Below, piece after piece: positions 33,180-47,531 of a stretch of DNA of 64,000 nt. The notes beneath the pieces were generated by a model. That model made no database searches, was not told the DNA's origin, and worked only from the letters and a program-made list of their open reading frames with translations. Both the position numbers and the translations under genes were made by a program. The first letter of the stretch is position 1; the number at the start of each line of letters is the position of its first letter. Source of the DNA: an uncultured delta proteobacterium (GTDB taxonomy: Bacteria; Desulfobacterota; Syntrophia; Syntrophales; UBA2185); NCBI GenBank assembly GCA_963695875.1, contig CAVOID010000004.1, positions 192,001-256,000 of the forward strand, written 5' to 3'.

Positions 33180-33302
33180 ATTGTGTTCAGCGGTTGCCAA
33201 ACACGCCGTGTTACCAAAGACTGATTGATTAAAAATTGCCATCGTGATATAATTCAAATAAATTTAATATATTGCAGATATGAGGCACCGCCGGAATACA
33301 CC

Positions 33303-35309
33303 GTGAAAATTGTCGATAGATTGATAAGTAAACTTTTTAAGATAAACCTGCAAAGCCGCCTTGTCGTGGGTTTCCTGATAGCCACGTTCCTTACAGGTTT
33401 TGTGGCAACACTCATAGGAATATGGACGATCAATAAAAGTACTATAGATGAGGTACAAAACAGAGTAAGGCAAGACATCAATACAGCAAAACTGATCTAT
33501 AATCAAACCCTGGAAAAGATAACATCCCAGATTCAATTTGCAGCCGAGGGTGCTGATCTGCATATGTCGATACCCAACCGTGATTTATCCAACATGGTAA
33601 ATTTGAAGGGCTTAATCCGGCACGAACATGGAACTCAGGCACAAGACAAGGATATGTTCCTCGATATGCTCTCGGTGGTGGACGCCCGTGGGTATGTTGT
33701 GTACAGAGCAGCCAACCCCAGAATCAAGGGAGACAATATGCTCTGGGCCCCGGTCGTAAAAATGTGCCTGGAAAAAAAGTCACCGCAGTCATCTACCGAA
33801 CTTATGTCCATTAAAAACATTCTGAGAGAGAATCCACGTCTTGCCGATCATGCCAGGATTGAAATCATCAAAACACCTCTCTCATTTGAGCCGGGGGAGA
33901 AACAACTCTCAGACGGCATGGTCATGATGGCGGCTTATCCCATTTTTGATGCGAAAAAGAATATGCTGGGCGCAATAGTGGGAGGAGTACTCATGAACAG
34001 GGACAATACTATCGTGGACAAAGTAAAAGAAACCGTATACCAGGGGGAAAAGTACAAAGGCCGTGACATGGGTGTGGCAACCATATTTCAGGGTGGTGTA
34101 AGAATTTCTACCAACGTCATGACTAAAGACAACAGAAGGGCTATTGGTACAACTTTATCAAAGGAGGTCTACGAAAAGGTTATAGTGGAAGGCAAAGACT
34201 GGGTTGGCAGGGCATTTGTGGTGGATGACTGGTACATAACCACTTACACCCCGATCTATGACATGAATAAAAATCTCATAGGGATCCTCTATACGGGCAT
34301 GCTGGAGGCAAAATACAGGGACATAAAGTGGCATACTATCTGGGTGAACCTCGGAATAACGTCTCTTGGTATGATCATAGCCTTTGTAATTTCCTTTTAC
34401 CTCGGCAACACCATTATAACACGGATACGCATGCTGAAGGAGGCTGCGGAGGCCATCGCTGCCGGCAATTTAGACTATAAATTGTCCCCCGATAAAATCT
34501 CCGGATTTGACATGCTGGATGAAGCGTTCAATTATATGTCGAAATCCCTGAAGGCCCACGACGAAAAACTGCACAAGGCTCATGAGCAGTTGGCAAGAAC
34601 AGAAAAATTGACCGCACTGGGTGAAATGGCGGCGGGTGTAGCCCACGAGATAAATAATCCTTTAGGGGGGATACTCCTTTACAGCAACCTTGTTCTCGAA
34701 GATATTCCTGCAGACTCTCCGGCACAGGAAAACATGCAGAAGATCATTTATCAGACGAACAGATGCAAGGGAATTGTCCAGAATCTTCTTGACTTTGCCA
34801 GAGCTCCTACAGGTGATATGCTGCCTCTCAAGATAGACAACATCATCAATACTTCTCTCAATTTGGTAAAGGATCAGGCCATGTTCCACGGCATAGAAAT
34901 AAAGACCGAACTCTCGGAGGATCTTCCGGAAGTGGTCGGCGACAAGGCCCGGCTGGAAGATGCTTTTCTGAACCTGTTTATCAATGCAGCTCATGCGATG
35001 AATGGTAAGGGGACGCTCACAATAAGAACCAGGCTAAGCAGAAATAATTCCGTAAAGATCTCCGTATCGGATACAGGCAAAGGAATAGACAAGGAACACC
35101 TCCCCCATATATTTGAACCTTTTTTTACGACAAAAGAGCCCGGACAGGGAACAGGTCTCGGACTTTCGATCGTTTATGGAATCATTAGAAAGCACAATGG
35201 CTTCATCGATGCGGAAAGCGAACCCGGTAAGGGGACGACTTTCATTATTTTCCTGCCTGCGTATATGGGCAAGTACAGCGGTATGGACGATGATGTCTTC
35301 TACAGTTGA
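33303..35309 (+). CDS. Membrane sensor histidine kinase with Cache_3-type sensor domain and HAMP
   Basis: Two TM helices, ATIFQGGVRISTNV..RAIGT..WYITTYTPI Cache motif, H-box GVAHEINNP, NLFINA, DTGKGI, FEPFFTTK, GTGLGL. Confidence 0.92.
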   Translation: MKIVDRLISKLFKINLQSRLVVGFLIATFLTGFVATLIGIWTINKSTIDEVQNRVRQDINTAKLIYNQTLEKITSQIQFAAEGADLHMSIPNRDLSNMVNLKGLIRHEHGTQAQDKDMFLDMLSVVDARGYVVYRAANPRIKGDNMLWAPVVKMCLEKKSPQSSTELMSIKNILRENPRLADHARIEIIKTPLSFEPGEKQLSDGMVMMAAYPIFDAKKNMLGAIVGGVLMNRDNTIVDKVKETVYQGEKYKGRDMGVATIFQGGVRISTNVMTKDNRRAIGTTLSKEVYEKVIVEGKDWVGRAFVVDDWYITTYTPIYDMNKNLIGILYTGMLEAKYRDIKWHTIWVNLGITSLGMIIAFVISFYLGNTIITRIRMLKEAAEAIAAGNLDYKLSPDKISGFDMLDEAFNYMSKSLKAHDEKLHKAHEQLARTEKLTALGEMAAGVAHEINNPLGGILLYSNLVLEDIPADSPAQENMQKIIYQTNRCKGIVQNLLDFARAPTGDMLPLKIDNIINTSLNLVKDQAMFHGIEIKTELSEDLPEVVGDKARLEDAFLNLFINAAHAMNGKGTLTIRTRLSRNNSVKISVSDTGKGIDKEHLPHIFEPFFTTKEPGQGTGLGLSIVYGIIRKHNGFIDAESEPGKGTTFIIFLPAYMGKYSGMDDDVFYS

Positions 35310-35342
35310 TTTTATTACCTCCAAATAAGGAAAATATTTGCA

Positions 35343-36689
35343 GTGACTACAAAAAATAAGAAGATCCTCATCATTGATGACGAGGAATCCATACGAGACG
35401 GATGCATGCAGGTCCTGTCGCGCAAAGGTTATCAGGTGGAAAGTACTGGAGACGCGCTTCAGGGACTTGAGCTGGCTCTCAGGAATATTTATGATATCAT
35501 TCTGGTGGATATCCGGATGCCTAAAATGGATGGATTGGAAATTCTCAAGAAGATTAAAGTCGAGAGAAACATCTCAGCAAAAGTCATTATTATCACCGGT
35601 TATGGAAGCATACCGATAGCTGTTGAGGCCATGAGGAACGGCGCCTTTAATTTTCTCACCAAGCCCTACTCCGCGCCCGATCTGAGAGAGGCTGTCGAGG
35701 GTGCATTGAAACAGTGTGATGCATACGCCGGAGAAAAGGAACTTTCCGTACTTATCGGCTCGAGCGACTACATGAAAGAGCTCAAGGAGTCCATCAGCAG
35801 GATAGCGCAGACTGATAGCACCGTTCTCATAACAGGAGAAAGTGGTACAGGAAAGGAACTTGTAGCGCGCACCGTCCACAACCTCAGCAGAAGGTGTGAT
35901 AAACCTTTTATTCCGGTCGACTGCTCTTCCCTTGTGGAGACCCTCATGGAAAGCGAGCTATTCGGACATGTCAAAGGGGCGTTCAGCGGAGCCACGGAAT
36001 CACGTGAAGGCCGTTTCCAGATGGCCGACACAGGGACGTTGTTTCTGGACGAGATTTCGAACATCAACCTCAACATTCAGGCCAAGTTACTGCGGGTAAT
36101 CCAGGAGCAGGAGGTCCCCAAGGTTGGCAGATCATCGCCTGAGAAGATTGACGTCAGGCTCATAGCAGCAACAAATAAGGATGTCCGGGCGGAAATTGAA
36201 GCGGGGAGATTCAGGGAGGATTTGTTCTACAGGATTTCAGTCGTGCCTCTCCATATAAAACCATTGAGAGAACATAAAACCGACATTCTGCCCATTGCCC
36301 AGCATTACCTCGATATATTTGTGGAGAAGTACGAAAGCAAGGTACGACGCTTCTCCGAGGAAGCAATGAAATCTCTCGTGTCATATCGATGGCCCGGTAA
36401 TGTCAGGGAACTTAAAAATACTATAGAACGTCTCTGCGTGCTTTGCGACCATGAGGTTGTAGACCTGTCCGATATATTCTACTATGGACAAGACGATCAA
36501 ACAAAAGCCCCTGCCGTGGATTCTTCCACGGGCAGGATGACCTTGATAGATGTGGAAAAAGAACATATATTAAAAGCCCTGAATCACTTCCACTTCCAGA
36601 TCAATAAGACTGCAAAATTCCTCGGTATTGACAGAAAGACTCTGAGGATAAAGATGCGTAATTACGGCATAACGATAGAGCATCATTAA
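35343..36689 (+). CDS. NtrC-family sigma54-dependent response regulator
   Basis: REC (DIRMP), GESGTGKE, ESELFGHVKGAFSGA, LFLDEI, FREDLFYR, WPGNVREL, Fis-type HTH. Confidence 0.96.
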   Translation: MTTKNKKILIIDDEESIRDGCMQVLSRKGYQVESTGDALQGLELALRNIYDIILVDIRMPKMDGLEILKKIKVERNISAKVIIITGYGSIPIAVEAMRNGAFNFLTKPYSAPDLREAVEGALKQCDAYAGEKELSVLIGSSDYMKELKESISRIAQTDSTVLITGESGTGKELVARTVHNLSRRCDKPFIPVDCSSLVETLMESELFGHVKGAFSGATESREGRFQMADTGTLFLDEISNINLNIQAKLLRVIQEQEVPKVGRSSPEKIDVRLIAATNKDVRAEIEAGRFREDLFYRISVVPLHIKPLREHKTDILPIAQHYLDIFVEKYESKVRRFSEEAMKSLVSYRWPGNVRELKNTIERLCVLCDHEVVDLSDIFYYGQDDQTKAPAVDSSTGRMTLIDVEKEHILKALNHFHFQINKTAKFLGIDRKTLRIKMRNYGITIEHH

Positions 36690-36708
36690 AAAAATCAGCA
36701 GCTCCATG

Positions 36709-36824
36709 GGGGTCATCCTGCCTCATAACAGGGGAGTTTTACCCCTCAAAGTTTTCTTTTCTTCCCTGCCTTCTATATATTAATCATAAATATCAATATG
36801 TTACAATTTGGCATCATCCTTGCT
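36709..36824 (+). promoter_or_regulatory. Sigma54 promoter with tandem boxes and IHF site (repeat copy 1)
   Basis: GGGGTCATCCTGCCTC (36709), GGGGAGTTTTACCCC (36731), exact IHF consensus TATCAATATGTTA (36791), TTGGCATCATCCTTGCT (GG 36810, GC 36822). Confidence 0.8.
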
Positions 36825-36864
36825 CATATTAATTATACAAAAATCAAAATTGGAGGTGACGGCG

Positions 36865-37254
36865 ATGTCAGTAAAGAAAAAAATTCTGTTAATAGACGAT
36901 GACAAAGATTTCCTGTATGCAACCAAACTGATTCTTGAAAAAGGCGGGTATGAGGTGTTTCTGGCAGAAGACGGGAAGCGAGGGGTTGAGATGTGGAAGT
37001 CGGTGTCTCCTGATCTTGCCATTATCGATATGATGATGGAGACGTGGGGTGAAGGGTTTGAAGTATTGAAAAAGATCCGCGCCACAGATACCGGGAAGGA
37101 CACGCCGCTTTTCATGCTGAGCGCTGTTGACCTGCAGGGTCCATACCAGTCATTTGAACCGCCTCCGGAGTTTCCGAAGGTGAACATGGTGTTGCATAAA
37201 CCTGTAAAGGCTGATGATCTTCTCGGATATATTGCCAGTGAGCTGGGTAGATAG
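36865..37254 (+). CDS. Single-domain response regulator (129 aa), copy 1
   Basis: IDDD, IIDMMME, LSA, HKP. GGAGG RBS. Confidence 0.92.
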   Translation: MSVKKKILLIDDDKDFLYATKLILEKGGYEVFLAEDGKRGVEMWKSVSPDLAIIDMMMETWGEGFEVLKKIRATDTGKDTPLFMLSAVDLQGPYQSFEPPPEFPKVNMVLHKPVKADDLLGYIASELGR

Positions 37255-37259
37255 CCGGT

Positions 37260-37382
37260 ATGATGAAGACTCAAGAACCGCTTATTTTGATCATCGATGA
37301 TGAGGAAGCCTTACGGGACGGGTGCCGTCAGGCGCTGGAAAAGTCCGGATATACCATACTAAACACAGGGGAGGGGCGATAG
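37260..37382 (+). pseudogene. Truncated 40-aa N-terminal fragment of the hybrid REC-kinase
   Basis: MMKTQEPLILIIDDEEALRDGCRQALEKSGYTILNTGEGR-stop matches the first residues of 43081..44211, then similarity ends. Confidence 0.85.
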
Positions 37383-37527
37383 TCTACACAATGGAAGTAT
37401 ACAAAAAGCAGCCTAAAGTCGCCTCCCCATGACTTGCAGCACTGAGCACTCTATAAGAACATACTTGAAAAGAGGGTTGATTTCAGGTAGCCTATATTAC
37501 AGTAAATTCTTGTCGAAGAGAGCATTC

Positions 37528-37749
37528 ATGCCCATAGAATACGACGACGAAAAGTCCTACCGGTTCCACAAAAGTGATTCTGCTGACAAGTGTTTTGCGT
37601 GCAATGAAAACTCCGACAGGTTGCTTATCGTTCGACAGATCAAAAGTATGATGCTTGTTCACCTTTGCCATAACTGCATATCAAACAATTTCTCAGACTA
37701 TCTTTTGGATAACACCAGACCCTGGCTTGGCGAGAAGGGGAATACTTAG
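37528..37749 (+). CDS. 73-aa CxxC..HxCxxC protein of unknown function, paralog 1
   Basis: CFAC-x21-CHNC, YLLDNTRPW. About 60% identical by hand alignment to 44283..44504. Confidence 0.8.
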   Translation: MPIEYDDEKSYRFHKSDSADKCFACNENSDRLLIVRQIKSMMLVHLCHNCISNNFSDYLLDNTRPWLGEKGNT

Positions 37750-37893: not shown

Positions 37894-38010
37894 GGAGTAA
37901 TATCTCCCCAAAGACGGGGTAAGTTACCCCCTTCCCTGCAACGAATTGGTTGCCGTATCTATGAATATCGAGTGATATCAAGCACTTTTGTTCTTGGTAT
38001 TAAAATTGCC
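37894..38010 (+). promoter_or_regulatory. Sigma54 promoter of the fdh operon with tandem boxes and IHF-like site
   Basis: GGAGTAATATCTCCCC (37894), perfect palindrome GGGGTAAGTTACCCC (37916), TATCAAGCACTTT (37976), TTGGTATTAAAATTGC (GG 37996, GC 38008). Confidence 0.78.
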
Positions 38011-38151: not shown

Positions 38152-38995
38152 ATGGGTAGTCATCCCGGCAACATATATGAACTTCGACCTGTGTCTATTT
38201 TAAGGACACTGCCGCAGATAAAGGATCACAGGTTGTTCCAGTTGAAGCTTGAGGACGGAACGACATGGGAGAGTTTCGGCCATCAACCGGGACAGTTTCT
38301 CGAAGTTTCTATCTTTGGTAAAGGAGAGGCGCCTATCAGCATATCCTCTCCCTCTACAAGGCTGGATACCCTTGAGATATGCGTTCGGCGTGCCGGCAAG
38401 GTGACCAATGCACTTTTCGAAATGGATAGAGGAGCTACTTTTCAACATCCGCGGACCTTACGGCAGGGGATTTCCTGTGGATAAGCTGAAGGGCCACAAG
38501 CTTCTTCTCATTGCGGGCGGTCTCGGGCTTGCCCCTTTGCGCTCTCTTCTCCTGTACGCCCTCGATAGGAGAGGTGATTTCGATGATATCATCCTGATGT
38601 ACGGGACGAATAACCCTGATAATGTCCTGTTCAAGTATGAACTGTTAAGCTTTTATGACAGGGATGACATCAAGTACCTCTACAGCGTGGACAGGGATGA
38701 TGAAGGGATCTGGAAGCAGTATGTGGGGGTGGTGACAGGTCTGTTCGAAAAAGCCGCACTGTCTCCGGAAGACACCTATGCAGTCCTGTGCGGCCCCCCG
38801 ATCATGTACCGCTTCGTTTTGCAGAAACTGCTGAAGCTGGGATTTTCGAAAGATCATATATATATGTCATTGGAGAGAATGATGAAGTGCGGCGTCGGGA
38901 AATGCGGTCACTGCGCCATCGGTGACAAGTACTGCTGCATGGACGGTCCCGTTTTTCCCTATACCGAAATCGAAAGTATCGAGGAGGCAATCTAA
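38152..38995 (+). CDS. FAD/NAD(P)-binding [2Fe-2S] subunit, AsrB/HydG(gamma)/FlxA-like (one +1 frameshift near 38440)
   Basis: QPGQF, GEAPISISS, RGPYGRGFP, AGGLGLAPLRS, CGPPIMY, ERMMKCGVGKCGHC, CMDGPVF. Confidence 0.9.
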
Positions 38996-41032
38996 TGGCC
39001 AGAACACCGACAGTATGTCCTTTCTGCGGGTGCGGATGCAGCTTCTATCTGGTATCTCAAAATGAAAGGGTGGTGGGCATAGAACCAAGCATTGCCAACC
39101 CCGTAAATAAGGGGATGCTCTGCGTGAAGGGATGGAATGCCTATGAGTTCATCCACTCGCCGGACAGGCTCACCACACCGCTGATAAGGAAGCATGGCGC
39201 CCTCGTCGAAAGCACATGGGACGAAGCGTTGAAGATCGTCTCGGAGAGATTGACGGATATTAAATCACGGTATGGCCCCCGCGCCATGGCATTTCTCAGT
39301 TCCGCCAAGGTGACCAACGAAGAGAACTACCTTTTTATGAAGATGGCACGGGCGGCATTCGGGACCAACAATGTCGATCACTGCGCCCGGCTCTGACACA
39401 GTGCAACGGTGGTCGGTCTGGCCGCTGCATTTGGATCAGGTGCAATGACAAACTCCATCAATGAATTTGAAGATGCCGATCTTTTTCTTGTTACAGGTTC
39501 GAACACAACGGCACAGCACCCGCTCATAGGGTCGCGTATCATCAATGCGAAAGAAAGGGGAGCAAAACTCCTTCTCATCGATCCGAGGGAGATACCGCTT
39601 GCCGGTTTCGCCGATCTCCACCTGAGGCAGAATATCGGCACGGATGTTGCCGTGTTGAACGGTATGATGAACATCATCATCGAAGAAGACCTTTACGATA
39701 AGGAGTTTGTCGAGGAAAGAACCGAGGGGTTTGAGCAATTGAAATCTGTCGTCAGCCGCTACACCCCGCGGGTGGTGGAGAAGATATCCGGTATCCCCGC
39801 CCATGACCTGGAGAAGGCGGCGACGGATGTATGCAATAGCGGACAAGGCCATGATCGTGTACGCCATGGGCATAACCCAGCATACGACAGGCACTGACAA
39901 TGTGAAAACCTGTGCGAACCTTGCCATGCTTACAGGCCATATCGGAAGGCCGTCCACGGGTGTCAACCCCTTAAGAGGGCAGAACAATGTCCAGGGCGCG
40001 TGCGATATGGGGGCGCTGCCCAACGTATACAGCGGCTATCAGCCGGTCGCTGATCCGGCCGTTAGGAAGAAGTTTGAGGATGCATGGGGCGTTCAAGGGC
40101 TGGATGATAAGGCAGGCCTGACCATTACGGACATGATGGTGGCTGCCCGGAAGGGAGAAATAAAATCCCTCTACATCATGGGTGAAAATCCCATGATGAG
40201 CGACCCTGACACATCAGACATCGAGCATGCCCTCTCCAGTCTCGAATTCCTTGTTGTGCAGGACATCTTTCTCTCCGAAACGGCAGCGAAGGCCGATGTA
40301 GTGCTCCCCGCCGCGTCATTTGCCGAAAAGGAAGGCACATACACCAACACGGAAAGAAGGGTGCAAATCTCGAAAAAGGCAGTTGCCTCCCCGGGACTGG
40401 CGAGGCCGGACTGGGAGATCATATGCGATGTAAGCAGGCTTGTGGGGTATCCCATGAATTACAGCTCGCCTGCTGATATCATGAAGGAGATCAATACCCT
40501 GACTCCGTCATACGCCGGCATTACTTACGAGAGGCTGGAGATGTGCCACGGACTTCAATGGCCCTGTCCCAATGAGGAACATCCGGGCACAGCCTACCTG
40601 CACAGGGACAGGTTTACCAAGGGCACAGGCACGTTTTTACCCTGTGAATTCAAACCCCTTGCTGAAGTGCCCGATGAAGAGTACGACTTTTTACTCACAA
40701 CCGGGCGTATCTACTACCATTACCATACCGGCACCATGACGAGGCGCACGAGCATACTGGAAAGGGAAGCGCCTGTGCCTTTCGTTGAGGTCAATCCCGA
40801 CGATGCAAAGAGGCTGGGCATAAGGAATGGTGACCAAGTGGAAGTTACATCACGGCGCGGCTCGATAAAGGCCAGGGCGGAGGTTACCACGAGGGTGCCC
40901 AAAAGGGTGGTATTTTCCACATTCCACTTCTACGAAGCGCCTGTCAACCTTCTTACCAACGCGGCATTTGACCCTCTTGCGAAGATACCGGAATATAAGG
41001 GGTGTGCAGTCAAAGTCAGGAGATGCATATGA
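38995..41032 (+). CDS. fdhA: Cytoplasmic Mo/W-bisPGD formate dehydrogenase alpha subunit, selenocysteine-containing (UGA 39394-39396; one +1 frameshift near 39822)
   Basis: [10 protein letters not shown]...LCVKG [4Fe-4S], [51 protein letters not shown]. No Tat signal. Confidence 0.95.
39397..39430 (+). promoter_or_regulatory. Bacterial SECIS element of fdhA
   Basis: Stem GGUGGUC/GGCCGCU with apical GGUCU loop starting 12 nt after the UGA, like the fdhF-type SECIS. Confidence 0.85.
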
Positions 41033-42045
41033 AAACGCTGGCAAAAAAAGACCTCAAAGGCGTAATCAAAGCCTGGACAGAAAAATATCATGTCCTGGCT
41101 CCGAGTAGAATGACAAAGGGGGATTGTATATTTGATACTTTTCAGGAAGAGTCATTTACCCTCGACTATAAAAAACCGCCGCTTCTGCCAAAGGCCGTTT
41201 TTCTTCCCCATAATGAGGTTGTCTTTGAGGTAAAAGAAAATAAGTTCCGTGAGGTCATATCCGCACGAAATACTATCCTCTTCGGGATACGCTCATGCGA
41301 CATGATGGGGTTGCTTCAAAGCACGAGTTTTATGACCCGGGATCGGGATGACATCTATTACAGCACAAAGAAAGAAAGGGCGACAATTATCGTCATGGCA
41401 TGTCCCGGTCCGCAAAATGAAACCTGTTTCTGCACGACAACATTCAGCGGGCCGGTCGCACAAAGAGGCTTTGATTTACTGTTCTTCGATATGGGGGATA
41501 ACTTCATCATAGAAACAGGAAGCGACAGAGGTAAAGAGCTGCTGTCTTCAGGCCCATTTACCGACATGGATGATAATCTTGCCGGAGAGAAAATAAAGAC
41601 GTTCAAGGAAAAGGCTGTCCGGGACATACCGGTGGTGGATGAGGTATATGAAGCCATGAGAAGGCTCAAGGACGGTATAGCCGATGAGAAAGTCTGGGAG
41701 TACTTCGGCCGCAAGTGCATCGTGTGCGGCGGCTGCGCCTTCGTATGCCCGACATGCACCTGTTTTAATGTGTATGACCAAGAATCTGCTCCGGGAAACG
41801 GCGTCAGAGCAAGAGCCTGGGATGCTTGCCTTTACGGTGGATTTACCCGTGAGGCATCCGGCCATAACCCGAGACCGACTCAGGCATCGAGGCTCAAGAG
41901 ACGACATGAGCACAAGCTCCTTTATTACAATGAGACTGATATCCAGGAGAGCTTGTGCGGTTGCGTGGGATGCGGCCGCTGTTCCGACTATTGTCCCGTC
42001 CACATCGGAACCCTGGAGGTGGCAAGAGAAATTGTCAAGGAATAA
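41029..42045 (+). CDS. 4Fe-4S dicluster subunit, AsrA/HydB(beta)/FlxB-like
   Basis: FGIRSCD, C......[47 protein letters not shown] overlap with fdhA. Confidence 0.9.
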
Positions 42046-42086: not shown

Positions 42087-42476
42087 ATGTCTGAGAAAAA
42101 AAGCATACTCATAATAGATGACGACAAAGACTATGCGGAGGCGCTGAGGATAGTGCTGGCAAATAATGGCTACGACGTGGATCATGCCCTGAACATCAAA
42201 GACGGGCGTAAGGCTATGGAAAAAAATATACCGAACCTCATTATCCTGGATGTTATGATGGATAAACATACAGACGGGTTCGAATTCTGCTACAATCTGA
42301 AGCATGATGAAGAATGCAGGAAAATTCCCGTCCTGATGGTGACCGCAGTTACTGAGAAAACGGGATTCAAGTTTTCTCCGGAGACGGATGGAGAATATCT
42401 GCAAGCTGACGACTACGTGGCAAAGCCCATCCCAGTTGCGGAACTTCTTTCCAGGGTTAACAAACTCATTGGCTGA
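42087..42476 (+). CDS. Single-domain response regulator (129 aa)
   Basis: IIDDD, ILDVMMD, VTA, AKP. GGAGG RBS. Confidence 0.92.
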   Translation: MSEKKSILIIDDDKDYAEALRIVLANNGYDVDHALNIKDGRKAMEKNIPNLIILDVMMDKHTDGFEFCYNLKHDEECRKIPVLMVTAVTEKTGFKFSPETDGEYLQADDYVAKPIPVAELLSRVNKLIG

Positions 42477-42529: not shown

Positions 42530-42530
42530 A

Positions 42531-42645
42531 GGGGGTCATCTACCTCACAACAGGGGAGTTTTACCCCCTCAAATCTCTCTTTTTCTCCGCCCTCTCTATA
42601 TTATTCATAAATATCAATATGTTACAATTTGGCATCATCCTTGCT
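42531..42645 (+). promoter_or_regulatory. Sigma54 promoter with tandem boxes and IHF site (repeat copy 2)
   Basis: GGGGGTCATCTACCTC (42531), GGGGAGTTTTACCCC (42553), TATCAATATGTTA (42612), TTGGCATCATCCTTGCT (GG 42631, GC 42643). Confidence 0.8.
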
Positions 42646-42685
42646 CATATTAATTATACAAAAATCAAAAATGGAGGTAACGACC

Positions 42686-43075
42686 ATGTCAGTAAAGAAA
42701 AAAATTCTCTTGATAGACGACGACAAAGACTTTCTATTCGCGACCAAACTGATTCTCGAAAAGGGCGGGTACGAGGTGTTCCTGGCAGAAGACGGGAAGC
42801 GGGGGGTTGAGATGTGGAAGTCGGTGTCTCCCGATCTTGCCGTTATCGATATGATGATGGAGACGTGGGGTGAAGGGTTTGAAGTATTGAAAAAGATCCG
42901 CGCCACAGATACCGGGAAGGATACACCGCTGTTCATGCTGAGCGCTGTTGATCTGCAGGGTCCATACCAATCATTTGAACCGCCTCCGGAGTTTCCGAAG
43001 GTGAACATGGTGTTGCATAAACCTGTAAAGGCTGATGATCTTCTCGGATATGTTGCCAGTGCTTTGGGTAAATAG
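42686..43075 (+). CDS. Single-domain response regulator (129 aa), copy 2
   Basis: Differs from 36865..37254 at 5 residues. Confidence 0.92.
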   Translation: MSVKKKILLIDDDKDFLFATKLILEKGGYEVFLAEDGKRGVEMWKSVSPDLAVIDMMMETWGEGFEVLKKIRATDTGKDTPLFMLSAVDLQGPYQSFEPPPEFPKVNMVLHKPVKADDLLGYVASALGK

Positions 43076-43080
43076 CCGGT

Positions 43081-44211
43081 ATGATGAAGACTCAAAAACC
43101 GCTTATTTTGATCATCGATGATGAGGAAGCCTTACGGGACGGGTGCCGTCAGGTGCTGGAAAAGTCCGGATATACCGTGCTAACCGCAGGGGAGGGAGTC
43201 GAAGGCATCAAGATTGCGCGGGAGAAAAAACCGGAAATAGCCTTTGTGGATCTTAAAATGCCGGGTATATCGGGCATGGAAATAATTGAAATTCTTTCCA
43301 GGGATATCCCTGACATTGTGCTGATTATGATTACCGGTTATGCGACGATTTTATCCGCAGTGGAAGCTATACAGAAAGGAGCGTACGATTACCTGCCCAA
43401 ACCTTTTAGCCCTGACCAGTTGAGGACAGTTGCCAGGCGAGGCCTCGATCATCGCAATCTCAGGATTGAAACACGAAGATTGAGAGAAGAAAAGGAGCGG
43501 ATGGAGAAGAGTTTTATCACCTTTGTAAGTCACGAAATGCGTTCTCCCCTCGTAGTTATTCGGCAATACATAGAATCCCTCAAAGCGATTGCGGGCGATC
43601 GTTTTGATCAAGACGTTTCGGATATCATAGAGAGGTGCAGCAAACGCATTCAGGGACTTGAAGAACTTATTGAACACTGGCTGGATTTGAGCAGAATAGA
43701 AAACGGAACTTTTGTACAAAAGAAAGAGACATTAAAGTTATCTCGTATTACTGCCAGGCTTGCGGAGGAGATGGCTCCTGTTTGTGGGGATAAGGGAGTC
43801 TCTCTGGATATTGATGTACCGGAAAATTCACTCGATATTGTCGGGGATGAGGAAAGCCTGGTGCGGGTATTTGCAAATATCATCGGCAATGCAACAAAAT
43901 ATACGCCGGCAGGCGGTAAAATAACGGTCTCGGCGCGGTCCGACGATTGTTATGTCACCGTAAAAATTTCGGATACAGGTGCCGGCATTCCTCAAGATAA
44001 ACTTCCCTATATCTTCGAGCCGTTTTTCAGAGTAAGGGGAAAGGAGGAGCGGGAAAAAGGTTCAGGTCTCGGACTTACTTTTTGCAAAAAGATCATGACT
44101 TCTCACGGAGGGGAAATAGAGGCATCGTCTAAAGAAGGCGAGGGCACAACCTTTACGCTTAAATTTCCCGTTCAATCGTCCTCGGCGGGAGCTTCCCAAA
44201 TGTCTTCGTAA
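43081..44211 (+). CDS. Cytoplasmic hybrid REC-histidine kinase
   Basis: REC (FVDLKMPG), H-box FVSHEMRSP, NIIGNATKY, DTGAGIP, GSGLGL. Confidence 0.93.
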   Translation: MMKTQKPLILIIDDEEALRDGCRQVLEKSGYTVLTAGEGVEGIKIAREKKPEIAFVDLKMPGISGMEIIEILSRDIPDIVLIMITGYATILSAVEAIQKGAYDYLPKPFSPDQLRTVARRGLDHRNLRIETRRLREEKERMEKSFITFVSHEMRSPLVVIRQYIESLKAIAGDRFDQDVSDIIERCSKRIQGLEELIEHWLDLSRIENGTFVQKKETLKLSRITARLAEEMAPVCGDKGVSLDIDVPENSLDIVGDEESLVRVFANIIGNATKYTPAGGKITVSARSDDCYVTVKISDTGAGIPQDKLPYIFEPFFRVRGKEEREKGSGLGLTFCKKIMTSHGGEIEASSKEGEGTTFTLKFPVQSSSAGASQMSS

Positions 44212-44282: not shown

Positions 44283-44504
44283 ATGAAGTATGATGACGAA
44301 AAGTTTTACGAGTTTCACGAGAAAGATGCTCCCGACAGGTGTTTTATTTGCAGCAAAGACACAGCGGAGCTGCTGATCTTTCGACAAATCAAAAGCATGC
44401 TGCTTGTTCACCTGTGCCGGGATTGTATATATGAAAATATTGCTGACTATCTTCTGGATAATACAAGGCCCTGGCTCAGCGAAAAAGAAAGTATCGATAA
44501 ATAG
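44283..44504 (+). CDS. 73-aa CxxC..HxCxxC protein of unknown function, paralog 2
   Basis: CFIC-x21-CRDC, YLLDNTRPW. Paralog of 37528..37749. Confidence 0.8.
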   Translation: MKYDDEKFYEFHEKDAPDRCFICSKDTAELLIFRQIKSMLLVHLCRDCIYENIADYLLDNTRPWLSEKESIDK

Positions 44505-46525: not shown

Positions 46526-47531
46526 ATGGCAGATATCGACAAAAGGATGACGCTCAAGGATGCGGTAGCAAAGTTCATCCATGATGGCGATACGGTTTAC
46601 TATGGGGGCTTCCAGATTCATGGTCCCCATGGCCCTGACTCACGAAATCATCAGACAGAAGAAAAGACACCTCACCACGATCGAATCCTCGACGGACGTG
46701 GGTGGTCTGGATCTCATGGTGGGCGCCGGCTGTGTGACGGAAATTCACACTGCCTGGATCATGAACTGGTACGTGAAGGCGCCCTATGCCATTCGCCGGG
46801 CGTTCAACAAAGGTCACCTCAAGAGGTATGACATCTCCAACTTCGGCGCCACCACCGCCATGATGGCAGGTTTCATGGGCATTCCCTTCATGCCCATCCG
46901 GGGGAATATCGGCACGGATATGATGAAACACAACTTGACGGACCTCAGAATAATAGAAGATCCTTTCACCGGCAAGAAGACAACCGTTGTGCGCGCGTGG
47001 CGGGCCGATGTGGCAATCATCCACGCCCAGAAGGCCGACCGTCTCGGCAATGTGATATCCTATGGAACACGCGGCGTCACCGACGAGTTCGGCGCCAACG
47101 GAGCAACGCGGGGCGTCATCGTTACGGCCGAGGAGATTGTGGAGCCGGAGGTAACCAGAACCGATCCGGACCGCGTGATTGTTCCCTACTTCAAGACCCT
47201 GGCCGTTGTCCACTGCCCGTATGGCGCTCATCCATCGGCCTGCCGCGGCTACTACGGCCTGGACATCCGCTTCAGCCAGTATCAGGGCAGATATGAGCGG
47301 CACGAAGAACTCCTGCCTGCCTTCCTCGATGAATGGGTCTACGGCTGCAAAGACCAGGAAGCATACATCGAGAAATATAAATCGAAATTCGGCCAGAAAG
47401 GCCTGGACCTGCTGAAACCCATTCTCGGCTTTACGCCGAGCCCAAAACTGGGTGTCGATTACGGTTACCATGATCCGGTATGCTGGAAAGGTGTGCCCAT
47501 GTACACTGATGACCGGCTCGACGGCTTTTGA
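46526..47531 (+). CDS. Family I CoA-transferase alpha subunit, GctA-like (one +1 frameshift near 46618)
   Basis: DKRMTLKDAV..FIHDGD...GGF, PMALTHEIIRQ, AG..GIPFMP, GTD, DVAIIHAQKAD..GN, VIVTAEEIV, PYGAHP. Confidence 0.88.

What the first reader, a model, noticed from the sequence alone, without database searches (positions are those of the whole stretch)
38152..42045. FdhA translationally coupled between AsrB/HydG-like and AsrA/HydB-like subunits: candidate new FDH architecture
Seen: TAATG (38993-38997) and ATGA (41029-41032) overlaps link the three genes. There is no Tat signal, FdhB/FdnI, NuoE/F-like diaphorase, Hdr or NiFe subunit in the operon. Known: the flanking pair is the flavoprotein/Fe-S module of group 3b sulfhydrogenases, AsrAB and FlxAB, whereas characterised NAD-linked FDHs usually use NuoEF-like (FdsBG/HylBC) modules. 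Inferred: a three-subunit cytoplasmic formate:NAD(P)+ oxidoreductase or CO2 reductase, in which FdhA replaces the hydrogenase catalytic unit.
Basis: partly seen in the sequence, partly recalled or inferred. Interest (0 to 1): 0.72.

Follow-up and report, generated by a model that had tools for sequence, protein, structure and literature searches.

The report
Formate dehydrogenase with sulfhydrogenase-type NAD module
Three tightly linked genes, conserved as a set in many sediment bacteria, likely encode a soluble selenium enzyme that swaps electrons between formate and NAD(H) using two subunits known from soluble hydrogenases; this layout was already proposed in two genome papers, I found no bench test of it, and two breaks in this copy are likely assembly errors.

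Summary
The three genes and both overlaps are real. FdhA has an in-frame UGA at its catalytic position (selenocysteine). The first two genes each carry a one-base insertion, absent from relatives and likely assembly errors: 19 of 117 tested genes of this genome are frameshifted, and so is rpoB. A sigma-54 promoter motif precedes the operon in all 18 core-clade relatives.

The order flavoprotein–FdhA–Fe-S recurs in 22 distinct loci, and a second order (FdhA first) in 12. Both partner subunits form their own clade, outside Hdr-Flx, group 3b hydrogenase and Asr. The Fe-S subunit shares its fold with methanogen FdhB. A cysteine-type homologue pair is predicted to bind (0.85 against 0.00 for controls; possibly by likeness to solved FdhAB).

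Best reading: a cytoplasmic, non-bifurcating formate:NAD(P)+ oxidoreductase, NAD weakly favoured. It is not new as an idea. It was proposed for Desulfurivibrio dismutans (PMC12142623) and Iplasma (PMC3750248), and this scan found it before on other DNA. I found no purification or assay in nine searches.

The parts
37995..38009 (+). Sigma-54-type -24/-12 promoter motif (TGG-N8-TTGC spacing), likely promoter of the operon
   Evidence: Present upstream of gene 1 in the window and 18 of 18 core-clade relatives; 0 of 3 distinct sister-subclade loci, 1 of 12 FdhA-first loci; shuffles of each 400-base stretch hit in 0-3%. The consensus is recalled, the pattern was set after seeing the window, and kin are not independent.
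38152..38995 (+). Gene 1: HydG/AsrB/FlxA-like FAD, NAD(P) and [2Fe-2S] subunit (280 aa in relatives); split in this assembly by a one-base insertion near 38443
   Evidence: (P. furiosus SHI gamma, E 1.7e-62); intact L001 copy scores below all HydG/ShyC/AsrB cut-offs
38437..38444 (+). One extra base relative to relatives (frameshift 1), likely assembly error
   Evidence: Absent in 7 of 7 relatives covering it; left out in contigs of runs X1, X4 and X5; X3 covered the place without a listed gap
38993..38997 (+). TAATG stop/start overlap, gene 1 to fdhA
   Evidence: overlap in 8 of 22 same-order loci, 0-2 base gap in 14
38995..41032 (+). fdhA: FdhF-type Mo/W-bis-PGD formate dehydrogenase alpha subunit (678 aa in relatives), cluster ligands C8/C11/C15/C43, K45, catalytic Sec134, His135, Arg327; no Tat leader; split here by a one-base insertion at 39824
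   Evidence: intact L001 copy read with TGA=U scores 907 bits against a 666 cut-off for TIGR01591; best PDB match is a methanogen F420-FDH alpha, 9T1S_L
39394..39396 (+). In-frame TGA at the catalytic position, read as selenocysteine
   Evidence: TGA in 21 of 22 distinct same-order loci, Cys in the other; genome has tRNA-Sec, selA and a split selB
39400..39431 (+). SECIS-like hairpin after the UGA (weak evidence)
   Evidence: Predicted stem with GGUCU loop, but not more stable than shuffles (z 0.41); a similar loop sequence occurs in a Cys homologue
39824..39824 (+). One extra base (frameshift 2), likely assembly error
   Evidence: Absent in 8 of 8 relatives; left out in contigs of 7 of 8 runs laid, the eighth showing no cover at that place
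41029..41032 (+). ATGA start/stop overlap, fdhA to gene 3
   Evidence: overlap in 22 of 22 same-order loci
41029..42045 (+). Gene 3: HydB/AsrA/FlxB-like Fe-S subunit, 338 aa, intact; 15 conserved Cys plus His295 (room for up to four clusters, inferred); FrhB-like domain plus ferredoxin domain
   Evidence: model matches SHI beta (Z 27.1, 322 aligned, rmsd 3.4) and methanogen FdhB 7BKB_E (Z 14.3, 260 aligned, rmsd 4.3)
42087..42476 (+). Single-domain response regulator directly downstream; a regulator of this kind follows gene 3 in most same-order loci
33225..36689 (+). Cache/HAMP sensor kinase (33225-35309) and sigma-54-dependent response regulator (35343-36689); likely activator of the operon
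   Evidence: the pair lies upstream or downstream of the operon in most core-clade loci with enough flank; regulation itself untested

Best explanation
The three genes likely encode a soluble cytoplasmic, selenocysteine-containing formate:NAD(P)+ oxidoreductase in which FdhA is predicted to dock on the HydB/AsrA-like iron-sulfur subunit, which would pass electrons to the HydG/AsrB-like flavoprotein. Shown by sequence: intact catalytic motif (Sec, His, Arg) and cluster ligands in FdhA, conserved cluster Cys in both partners, one conserved operon. Predicted: the FdhA [4Fe-4S] loop touches the first ferredoxin-type cluster of the Fe-S subunit. Inferred from the P. furiosus SHI beta/gamma pair: onward transfer through the Fe-S subunit to the [2Fe-2S] and FAD of the flavoprotein, then hydride transfer to the nucleotide. 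Inferred: no electron bifurcation (one FNR-type flavin, no HdrA, NuoF or NfnB subunit in the operon); NAD slightly favoured over NADP (about 60-65%). Inferred, about 55%: in the cell it mostly reoxidises NADH by reducing CO2 to formate when partners keep formate low; formate oxidation, or supply of the Wood-Ljungdahl methyl branch, is the alternative. Expression is likely driven by sigma-54 and the neighbouring two-component system.
For: Same order with junctions of -4 to +2 bases in 22 distinct loci, among them genomes of four family codes (f1, f17, f60, f85); FdhA-first order in 12 more. Own clade for the flavoprotein (22 rows, SH-aLRT 98; 96/94 in a careful subset) and the Fe-S subunit (27 rows at 83, core 22 at 100); the Hdr-Flx clade (95 and 98) excludes them. 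21 of 22 FdhA rows form one clade (98) with the same core/sister split. The Fe-S subunit fold matches methanogen FdhB along its length, a protein that natively binds an FdhA. The FdhA's best PDB match is a methanogen F420-FDH alpha. Predicted complex of the Cys-type homologue L042: score 0.85, best control 0.00, contacts agree at 97% or more, partner pLDDT 84 or more; this mark was reached by 116 of 157 solved and 2 of 215 mismatched pairs; the interface joins FdhA 39-47 (ligand C43) to the C223/C226/C311 cluster. The genome holds one copy of each partner and no AsrC/Dsr-type siroheme protein or group 3b large subunit, and it holds selA, selB, tRNA-Sec and fdhD. Flavoprotein site: Asp where NAD-using PyrK has Asp and NADPH-using P. 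furiosus HydG has Thr, and Asn in 18 of 22 where HydG has Arg.
Against: No biochemistry. The complex was predicted for L042, a long-branch homologue (FdhA 61%, Fe-S subunit 35% identical to L001) whose FdhA falls outside the main clade, not for the window's own proteins. It may pass by likeness to solved methanogen FdhA-FdhB complexes. The flavoprotein's binding was not modelled. The Asp does not separate groups in my sample: 11 of 12 bacterial group 3b rows also have it, so NAD versus NADP is weak. Two frameshifts in 3.9 kb are more than the genome's average predicts (0.61 expected, P of 2 or more 0.13). The operon is patchy: no match in either same-genus genome, 10 of 21 in the family. The genome is 82.6% complete, so absences are soft. 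In D. dismutans the related genes are weakly expressed.
Confidence: 0.74

Rival explanations
1. The trimer is the input arm of a larger, possibly bifurcating assembly with the HdrL/MvhD/HdrD/HdrA proteins encoded elsewhere, as FdhAB is in the methanogen Fdh-Hdr complex.
For: hdrA, hdrL-like, mvhD and hdrD genes exist on contig C11. No flx genes were found, so the only FlxA/B-like proteins are these. The Fe-S subunit shares the FdhB fold, and FdhB links to Hdr in structure 7BKB. Fdh-Hdr-Flx clusters exist in the phylum (L172, L176).
Against: No hdr or mvhD gene in any of the 22 same-order or 12 FdhA-first neighbourhoods. Both partners lie outside the Hdr-Flx clade, and union with Fdh-Hdr-Flx FlxA is rejected. 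The C11 cluster is packed with 2-oxoacid:ferredoxin oxidoreductase genes and has its own NAD(P)-binding HdrL-like protein.
Confidence: 0.1
2. In this strain the operon is decaying: the two insertions are real, and genes 1 and 2 are pseudogenes.
For: Both insertions are in the assembly. No laid run holds half of the window's words, so the strain's own reads were not seen. Same-genus genomes lack a match.
Against: 19 of 117 orthologues sampled from a near-complete relative are frameshifted in this assembly. rpoB lies in three frames; selB and the acetyl-CoA synthase match are split too. There are no premature stops or deletions in the operon, and identity to the intact L001 copy is 94-99%. Relatives and run contigs lack both bases.
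Confidence: 0.07
3. The genes are co-transcribed but act apart, or with another acceptor: FdhA works with ferredoxin alone, and the HydB/HydG-like pair acts as an NAD(P)H-dependent sulfur, polysulfide or sulfite reductase module.
For: The pair is annotated as sulfur reductase subunits of sulfhydrogenase and as AsrAB. FdhA alone of T. onnurineus Fdh3 can use ferredoxin (passages).
Against: No siroheme (AsrC/Dsr) protein found in the genome (82.6% complete). FdhA sits between the two partners, with concordant trees. A predicted cluster-to-cluster interface exists.
Confidence: 0.09

Closest known systems
FdhA-HydB-HydG cluster of Desulfurivibrio dismutans AMeS2 (RS03135-03125; PMC12142623, passages read)
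   Same: Same three subunit types, no HydA/HydD; the authors propose HydB and HydG shuttle NAD(P)H electrons to FdhA for CO2 reduction.
   Different: Locus tags imply FdhA-HydB-HydG order, against flavoprotein-FdhA-Fe-S here. In my trees the FdhA-first loci form separate clades, though one origin is not rejected (p-AU 0.24). I did not have its sequences. It is a hypothesis, with expression data only.
asrA/asrB-like genes beside fdhF in 'Iplasma' (Yelton et al. 2013, PMC3750248, passages read)
   Same: asrAB homologues without asrC next to an FdhF alpha gene, suggested to be FDH subunits.
   Different: Archaeal; no mechanism or assay; sequences not compared here.
Pyrococcus furiosus sulfhydrogenase I (group 3b [NiFe], HydBGDA; PDB 9NEZ/9NF0)
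   Same: Beta and gamma subunits are the closest solved relatives of genes 3 and 1.
   Different: No NiFe large or small subunit; scores far below the HydB/HydG cut-offs; separate clade; residues at the nucleotide site differ.
Methanogen F420-dependent FdhAB (PDB 7BKB, 9T1S) and ElpB (8RVU)
   Same: FdhA of similar length without extra N-terminal domains; the Fe-S subunit shares the FdhB fold over 260 residues.
   Different: 16% identity in the beta subunit; a separate FNR-type flavoprotein supplies the nucleotide site; no Hdr/MvhD in the operon. Whether gene 3 binds a flavin is untested.
FlxABCD-HdrABC and Fdh-Hdr-Flx clusters
   Same: FlxA and FlxB are homologous to genes 1 and 3.
   Different: No FlxC/D, MvhD or Hdr nearby; distinct clades. 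The Flx clade was identified by gene neighbourhood, not by a named characterised sequence.
Thermococcus onnurineus Fdh3 (PMC8965080, passages read)
   Same: Purified cytoplasmic FDH that reduces NADP+ through a non-NuoF flavoprotein and Fe-S subunits: a functional analogue.
   Different: Its flavoprotein was modelled on NfnI and it has two small 18 kDa Fe-S subunits; not HydB/HydG-type.

Membership tests
Mo/W-bis-PGD formate dehydrogenase alpha (FdhF type) | Catalytic Sec/Cys, His and Arg; N-terminal [4Fe-4S] motif with Lys | tested here: met
   Sec134 (TGA), His135, Arg327, C8/C11/C15/C43, K45
Mo/W-bis-PGD formate dehydrogenase alpha (FdhF type) | Score above the TIGR01591 cut-off | tested here: met
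   907 versus 666 bits for the intact 97-99% identical L001 copy; the window's pieces score 175, 171 and 513
Mo/W-bis-PGD formate dehydrogenase alpha (FdhF type) | Formate/CO2 turnover and metal identity | not testable with these tools
   Needs purified enzyme
Selenoprotein FDH | In-frame UGA at the metal ligand plus Sec machinery | tested here: met
Selenoprotein FDH | SECIS hairpin 3' of the UGA | tested here: inconclusive
   Hairpin predicted but z 0.41; loop sequence also in a Cys homologue
Proposed FdhA-HydB-HydG (AsrAB) NAD(P)-linked FDH | Catalytic fdhA adjacent to hydB/asrA and hydG/asrB homologues, without hydA/hydD or asrC | tested here: met
Proposed FdhA-HydB-HydG (AsrAB) NAD(P)-linked FDH | The subunits form a complex | tested here: inconclusive
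   Prediction supports FdhA/Fe-S subunit binding in homologue L042 (0.85 vs 0.00); possible likeness to solved FdhAB; flavoprotein not modelled
Group 3b [NiFe] sulfhydrogenase | HydA and HydD subunits in the operon | tested here: not met
   None adjacent; genome NiFeSe_Hases matches are a periplasmic-type pair and a complex-I-like subunit
Group 3b [NiFe] sulfhydrogenase | Partners in the HydB/HydG clade or above the cut-offs | tested here: not met
Anaerobic sulfite reductase AsrABC | Siroheme subunit AsrC | tested here: not met
   Not in the operon; PF01077 not found in the 82.6% complete genome; AsrA/AsrB scores below cut-off and in a separate clade
Hdr-Flx / Fdh-Hdr-Flx | hdr, mvhD and flxC/D genes in the cluster, and partners in the Flx clade | tested here: not met
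   p-AU 8e-9
NuoEF-type NAD-linked FDH (FdsABG, FdhA-HylBC) | NuoF-like FMN subunit and NuoG-like N-terminal Fe-S domains on FdhA | tested here: not met
   FdhA starts at the [4Fe-4S] domain; NuoF-like genes lie elsewhere in the genome
Methanogen F420-dependent FdhAB | Beta subunit with FrhB-like plus ferredoxin fold | tested here: met
   Z 14.3, 260 aligned, rmsd 4.3 to 7BKB_E; Z about 10-11 to FrhB subunits
Methanogen F420-dependent FdhAB | FAD and F420 binding in the beta subunit | not tested
   No ligand modelling or F420 pathway search was done
Periplasmic FdnGHI/FdhAB | Tat signal and FdnH/FdnI partners | tested here: not met
   a cytochrome-b-linked FDH is encoded elsewhere (L193)

The most novel reading that the evidence does not exclude
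This is an unassayed class of metal formate dehydrogenase: the bacterial counterpart of methanogen FdhAB. The HydB/AsrA-type subunit is an FdhB-fold protein that docks on FdhA the same way, and an FNR-type flavoprotein replaces the F420 site. In this Syntrophales family, where no Hdr-Flx was found, it serves as a sigma-54-controlled, non-bifurcating NADH-to-formate outlet for syntrophic growth.
Probability: 0.35. Interest if true: 0.62.

Novelty: new member of a known kind. Interest (0 to 1): 0.42.

Why it matters
Cytoplasmic formate dehydrogenases are central to interspecies electron transfer in methanogenic habitats and are sought as CO2-reducing, NAD(P)H-recycling catalysts. A compact three-subunit NAD(P)-linked type without a NuoF module would be a new biochemical class, though already guessed at in print. 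It also matters for annotation: these partner genes are labelled 'sulfhydrogenase (sulfur reductase) beta' in databases, which can be misread as sulfur or sulfite reduction. New here, relative to the passages I read: a separate clade with its own gene order, the FdhB-like fold, a controlled complex prediction and a conserved sigma-54 site, which together give specific tests.

Tried and rejected
Programmed frameshifting or true pseudogene: rejected as the main reading, because relatives are single-frame and the assembly is frameshift-rich.

SECIS stability test: not significant. Sigma-70 promoter and terminator scan: counts close to shuffles, 13 vs 9.5 and 7 vs 7.6.

NAD versus NADP from the Asp position: does not separate my groups.

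Fusion evidence: of 16 longer relatives, one (P0245) joins an FdhA C-terminal part to a truncated Fe-S subunit. It is a single sequence on a 3 kb contig, so it may be an artefact and was not used. Fourteen are Fe-S/flavoprotein fusions.

Expression: contigs of RNA runs X19 and X20 cover parts of the operon at 90-99% identity, but the shares were small (0.07-0.08), no silent control stretch was laid, and contigs cannot show transcription, so this was not counted.

No FocA-type formate channel was found (incomplete genome). One origin of both gene orders was neither shown nor rejected. Look-ups of earlier scan findings by sequence and by place found nothing.

Literature: nine searches listed no purification or assay of this enzyme type. 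Passages of PMC7382037, PMC5947623, PMC10553843, PMC7082340, PMC9686372 and PMC13101534 did not describe it. A 2011 comparative-genomics review of sulfate reducers that I recalled was not retrieved, the SHI structure paper did not turn up in my searches, and I read no supplements; any of these could mention the cluster.
Full report
Observation. TAATG (38993-38997) and ATGA (41029-41032) are present. The genes match HydG/AsrB, Fdh-alpha and HydB/AsrA families, and the closest solved partners are P. furiosus sulfhydrogenase I gamma and beta. FdhA begins directly with its [4Fe-4S] motif, so it has no Tat leader and no NuoG-like extension. The flanks hold two-component regulators, not redox subunits. 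Records titled Syntrophaceae or Deltaproteobacteria carry 93-97% identical Fe-S subunits, so the host is likely a Syntrophales bacterium.

Neither gene 1 nor fdhA is one open frame in the window. Gene 1 has one extra base near 38443, absent in 7 of 7 relatives that cover it; fdhA has one at 39824, absent in 8 of 8. Run contigs leave out the base at 39824 in 7 of 8 runs laid and the base near 38443 in 3 runs; X3 covered the first site without a listed gap. The assembly is error-rich: of 209 proteins sampled from 320 kb of near-complete relative G007, 117 had a scorable orthologue and 19 of these are frameshifted in this genome. rpoB lies in three frames, and selB and the acetyl-CoA synthase match are split. 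The rate predicts 0.61 shifts in the operon, with P of two or more 0.13, so error is likely but not shown. The TGA at 39394 sits at the catalytic position and is kept in 21 of 22 distinct same-order loci; tRNA-Sec, selA, selB and fdhD are in the genome. The hairpin after it is not more stable than shuffles.

Conservation. I examined 169 loci with a gene 3 homologue: 9, 80 and 80 regions picked mostly by score. Most of the phylum matches (261 of 401 genomes matched) were not opened, and the short loci L010-L029 were left out of this count. Labels came from neighbourhoods, set before the trees: 23 same-order (22 distinct), 8 cut same-type, 11 FdhA-first plus 2 cut (L150 was later found to be a twelfth), 10 with a catalytically degenerate FdhA-like gene, mostly beside membrane subunits, 51 Hdr-Flx, 33 group 3b, 5 Asr, 26 other. 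In same-order loci the FdhA/Fe-S overlap holds in 22 of 22, and the first junction overlaps in 8 of 22 with a 0-2 base gap in 14. Distribution is patchy: 10 of 21 family relatives matched, and neither same-genus genome did. A sigma-54-type motif at 37995-38009 recurs in 18 of 18 core-clade relatives, 0 of 3 distinct sister-subclade loci and 1 of 12 FdhA-first loci, with 0-3% of shuffles hitting (my note said 17, the recount is 18). The consensus is recalled and kin are not independent. A sigma-54-dependent regulator and sensor kinase travel with most core-clade loci.

Phylogeny. Fe-S subunit tree (122 of 148 rows; group 3b thinned to 12 of 23, 'other' to 4 of 19): same-order rows are one group (SH-aLRT 83; core 22 rows 100), outside Hdr-Flx (95), Asr (100) and the group 3b rows (100). 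Flavoprotein tree (107 rows; L001 standing in for the broken window gene): same-order 98, Hdr-Flx 98. A careful 43-row subset gave 96/94 and 100/99; joining same-order rows with the Fdh-Hdr-Flx FlxA rows is rejected (p-AU 8e-9), and joining both FDH gene orders is not (0.24). FdhA tree (57 rows): 21 of 22 same-order rows form a clade (98) with the same core/sister split; L042 falls elsewhere. The Flx clade is defined by neighbourhood, as no named characterised sequence was available. Both partners score below every curated cut-off for HydB/G, ShyB/C and AsrA/B. The genome's hdr genes lie in a POR-HdrL-MvhD-HdrD-HdrA cluster with no flx genes, and no siroheme protein was found; completeness is 82.6%.

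Structure. The gene 3 model (pLDDT 78.6) matches SHI beta (Z 27.1, rmsd 3.4, 322 aligned), then methanogen FdhB 7BKB_E (Z 14.3, rmsd 4.3, 260 aligned) and 8RVU_E, then FrhB-type subunits (Z about 10-11). Fifteen Cys and His295 are conserved across groups. FdhA's best PDB match is a methanogen F420-FDH alpha. So an FdhA bound to a subunit of this fold has solved precedent. A complex prediction on the cysteine-type same-order homologue L042 (FdhA 2-676, Fe-S subunit 1-325, with my alignments) scored 0.85 against 0.00 for the best of three controls, with contacts agreeing at 97% or more and partner pLDDT 84 or more. That mark was reached by 116 of 157 solved and 2 of 215 mismatched pairs. The closest contacts join the FdhA loop carrying ligand C43 to the C223/C226/C311 cluster. 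This is a homologue, may reflect likeness to solved FdhAB, and leaves the flavoprotein unmodelled.

Mechanism. Shown: motifs, operon, clades. Predicted: the FdhA/Fe-S interface. Inferred from the SHI beta/gamma pair and general knowledge of FNR-family flavoproteins: formate, metal-Sec site, FdhA cluster, Fe-S subunit clusters, [2Fe-2S], FAD, NAD(P). No known bifurcating flavin subunit is in the operon, so I infer a simple reversible enzyme. NAD is weakly favoured: Asp as in NAD-using PyrK where P. furiosus HydG has Thr, and Asn in 18 of 22 where HydG has Arg; but bacterial group 3b rows also have the Asp. The genome encodes formate-THF ligase, acetyl-CoA synthase and AcsV and ETF genes beside a CCG-domain oxidoreductase, so both NADH disposal to formate and Wood-Ljungdahl supply are plausible. 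Passages of PMC7382037 report formate-generation genes expressed by most syntrophic fatty-acid-degrading Desulfobacterota, which tips me slightly to NADH disposal (about 55%).

Prior knowledge. Earlier scan notes pointed to two papers, which I checked by reading passages. PMC12142623 describes FdhA RS03135 next to HydB and HydG without HydA/HydD and proposes NAD(P)H-to-CO2 transfer, with low expression. PMC3750248 ties asrA/asrB-like genes without asrC to an adjacent fdhF in Iplasma. T. onnurineus Fdh3 is a purified NADP-linked analogue with different partners (passages). Nine searches listed no assay of this type. The library lacks most subscription papers and I read no supplements.

Verdict. 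The architecture is already proposed in print and was found before by this scan on other DNA. This is a new, selenocysteine-type, differently ordered member of an unassayed kind. Interest 0.42.

Noticed in passing
window 36708-37375 and 42530-43200: A block of about 670 bases (response regulator gene plus the start of a hybrid kinase gene) is duplicated on both sides of the operon, also in L001, L002 and L005. In L003 and L130-L132 the regulatory genes instead form one block downstream, which suggests a rearrangement in the window's lineage.
   Followed up: partly
window 37429-37749 and about 44283-44486: Small Cys-containing ORF with no Pfam or NCBIfam match, present in two paralogous copies (63% identical) and recurring near the operon in family relatives.
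   Followed up: no
G000 whole assembly; window 46526-47531, 48770, 48955: About 16% of tested genes are frameshifted, including rpoB, selB and a CoA-transferase gene in the window; other 'broken gene' findings in this genome should be treated with care.
   Followed up: yes
L122, L123, L126, L136, L151, L152, L155, L163, L169, L044: FdhA-like gene lacking the catalytic Cys/Sec-His motif, followed by the Fe-S gene and mostly the flavoprotein and membrane complex-I/group-4-hydrogenase-like subunits; their Fe-S subunits form one clade.
   Followed up: partly
L043, L183, L150: FdhA-first operons followed by an AcsV/RACo-cluster gene (cluster c26), a link to the Wood-Ljungdahl pathway.
   Followed up: no
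P0246-P0260 (except P0253); P0245: Natural Fe-S/flavoprotein (HydB-HydG type) fusions, one named from Proteiniborus; a single unverified FdhA/Fe-S fusion.
   Followed up: partly
L191:4880-7573 (G000 C6); L200:6755-9835 (G000 C8): A second cytoplasmic FDH with NuoG-like N-terminal Fe-S domains and no adjacent NuoEF genes; a stand-alone 1027-aa NuoF/GltD-like fusion lies on another contig and could be its partner.
   Followed up: no
L124, L129, L135, L139, L140, L146: In other families of the order, Hdr-Flx clusters are directly followed by an NfnA/NfnB-like pair.
   Followed up: no
P0139, P0142, P0143, P0159, P0182, P0192, P0215: Cys-type FdhA relatives of L042 at 62-67% identity come from several other phyla by their names (Latescibacterota, Planctomycetota, Coatesbacteria and others); their neighbours could not be checked.
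   Followed up: no
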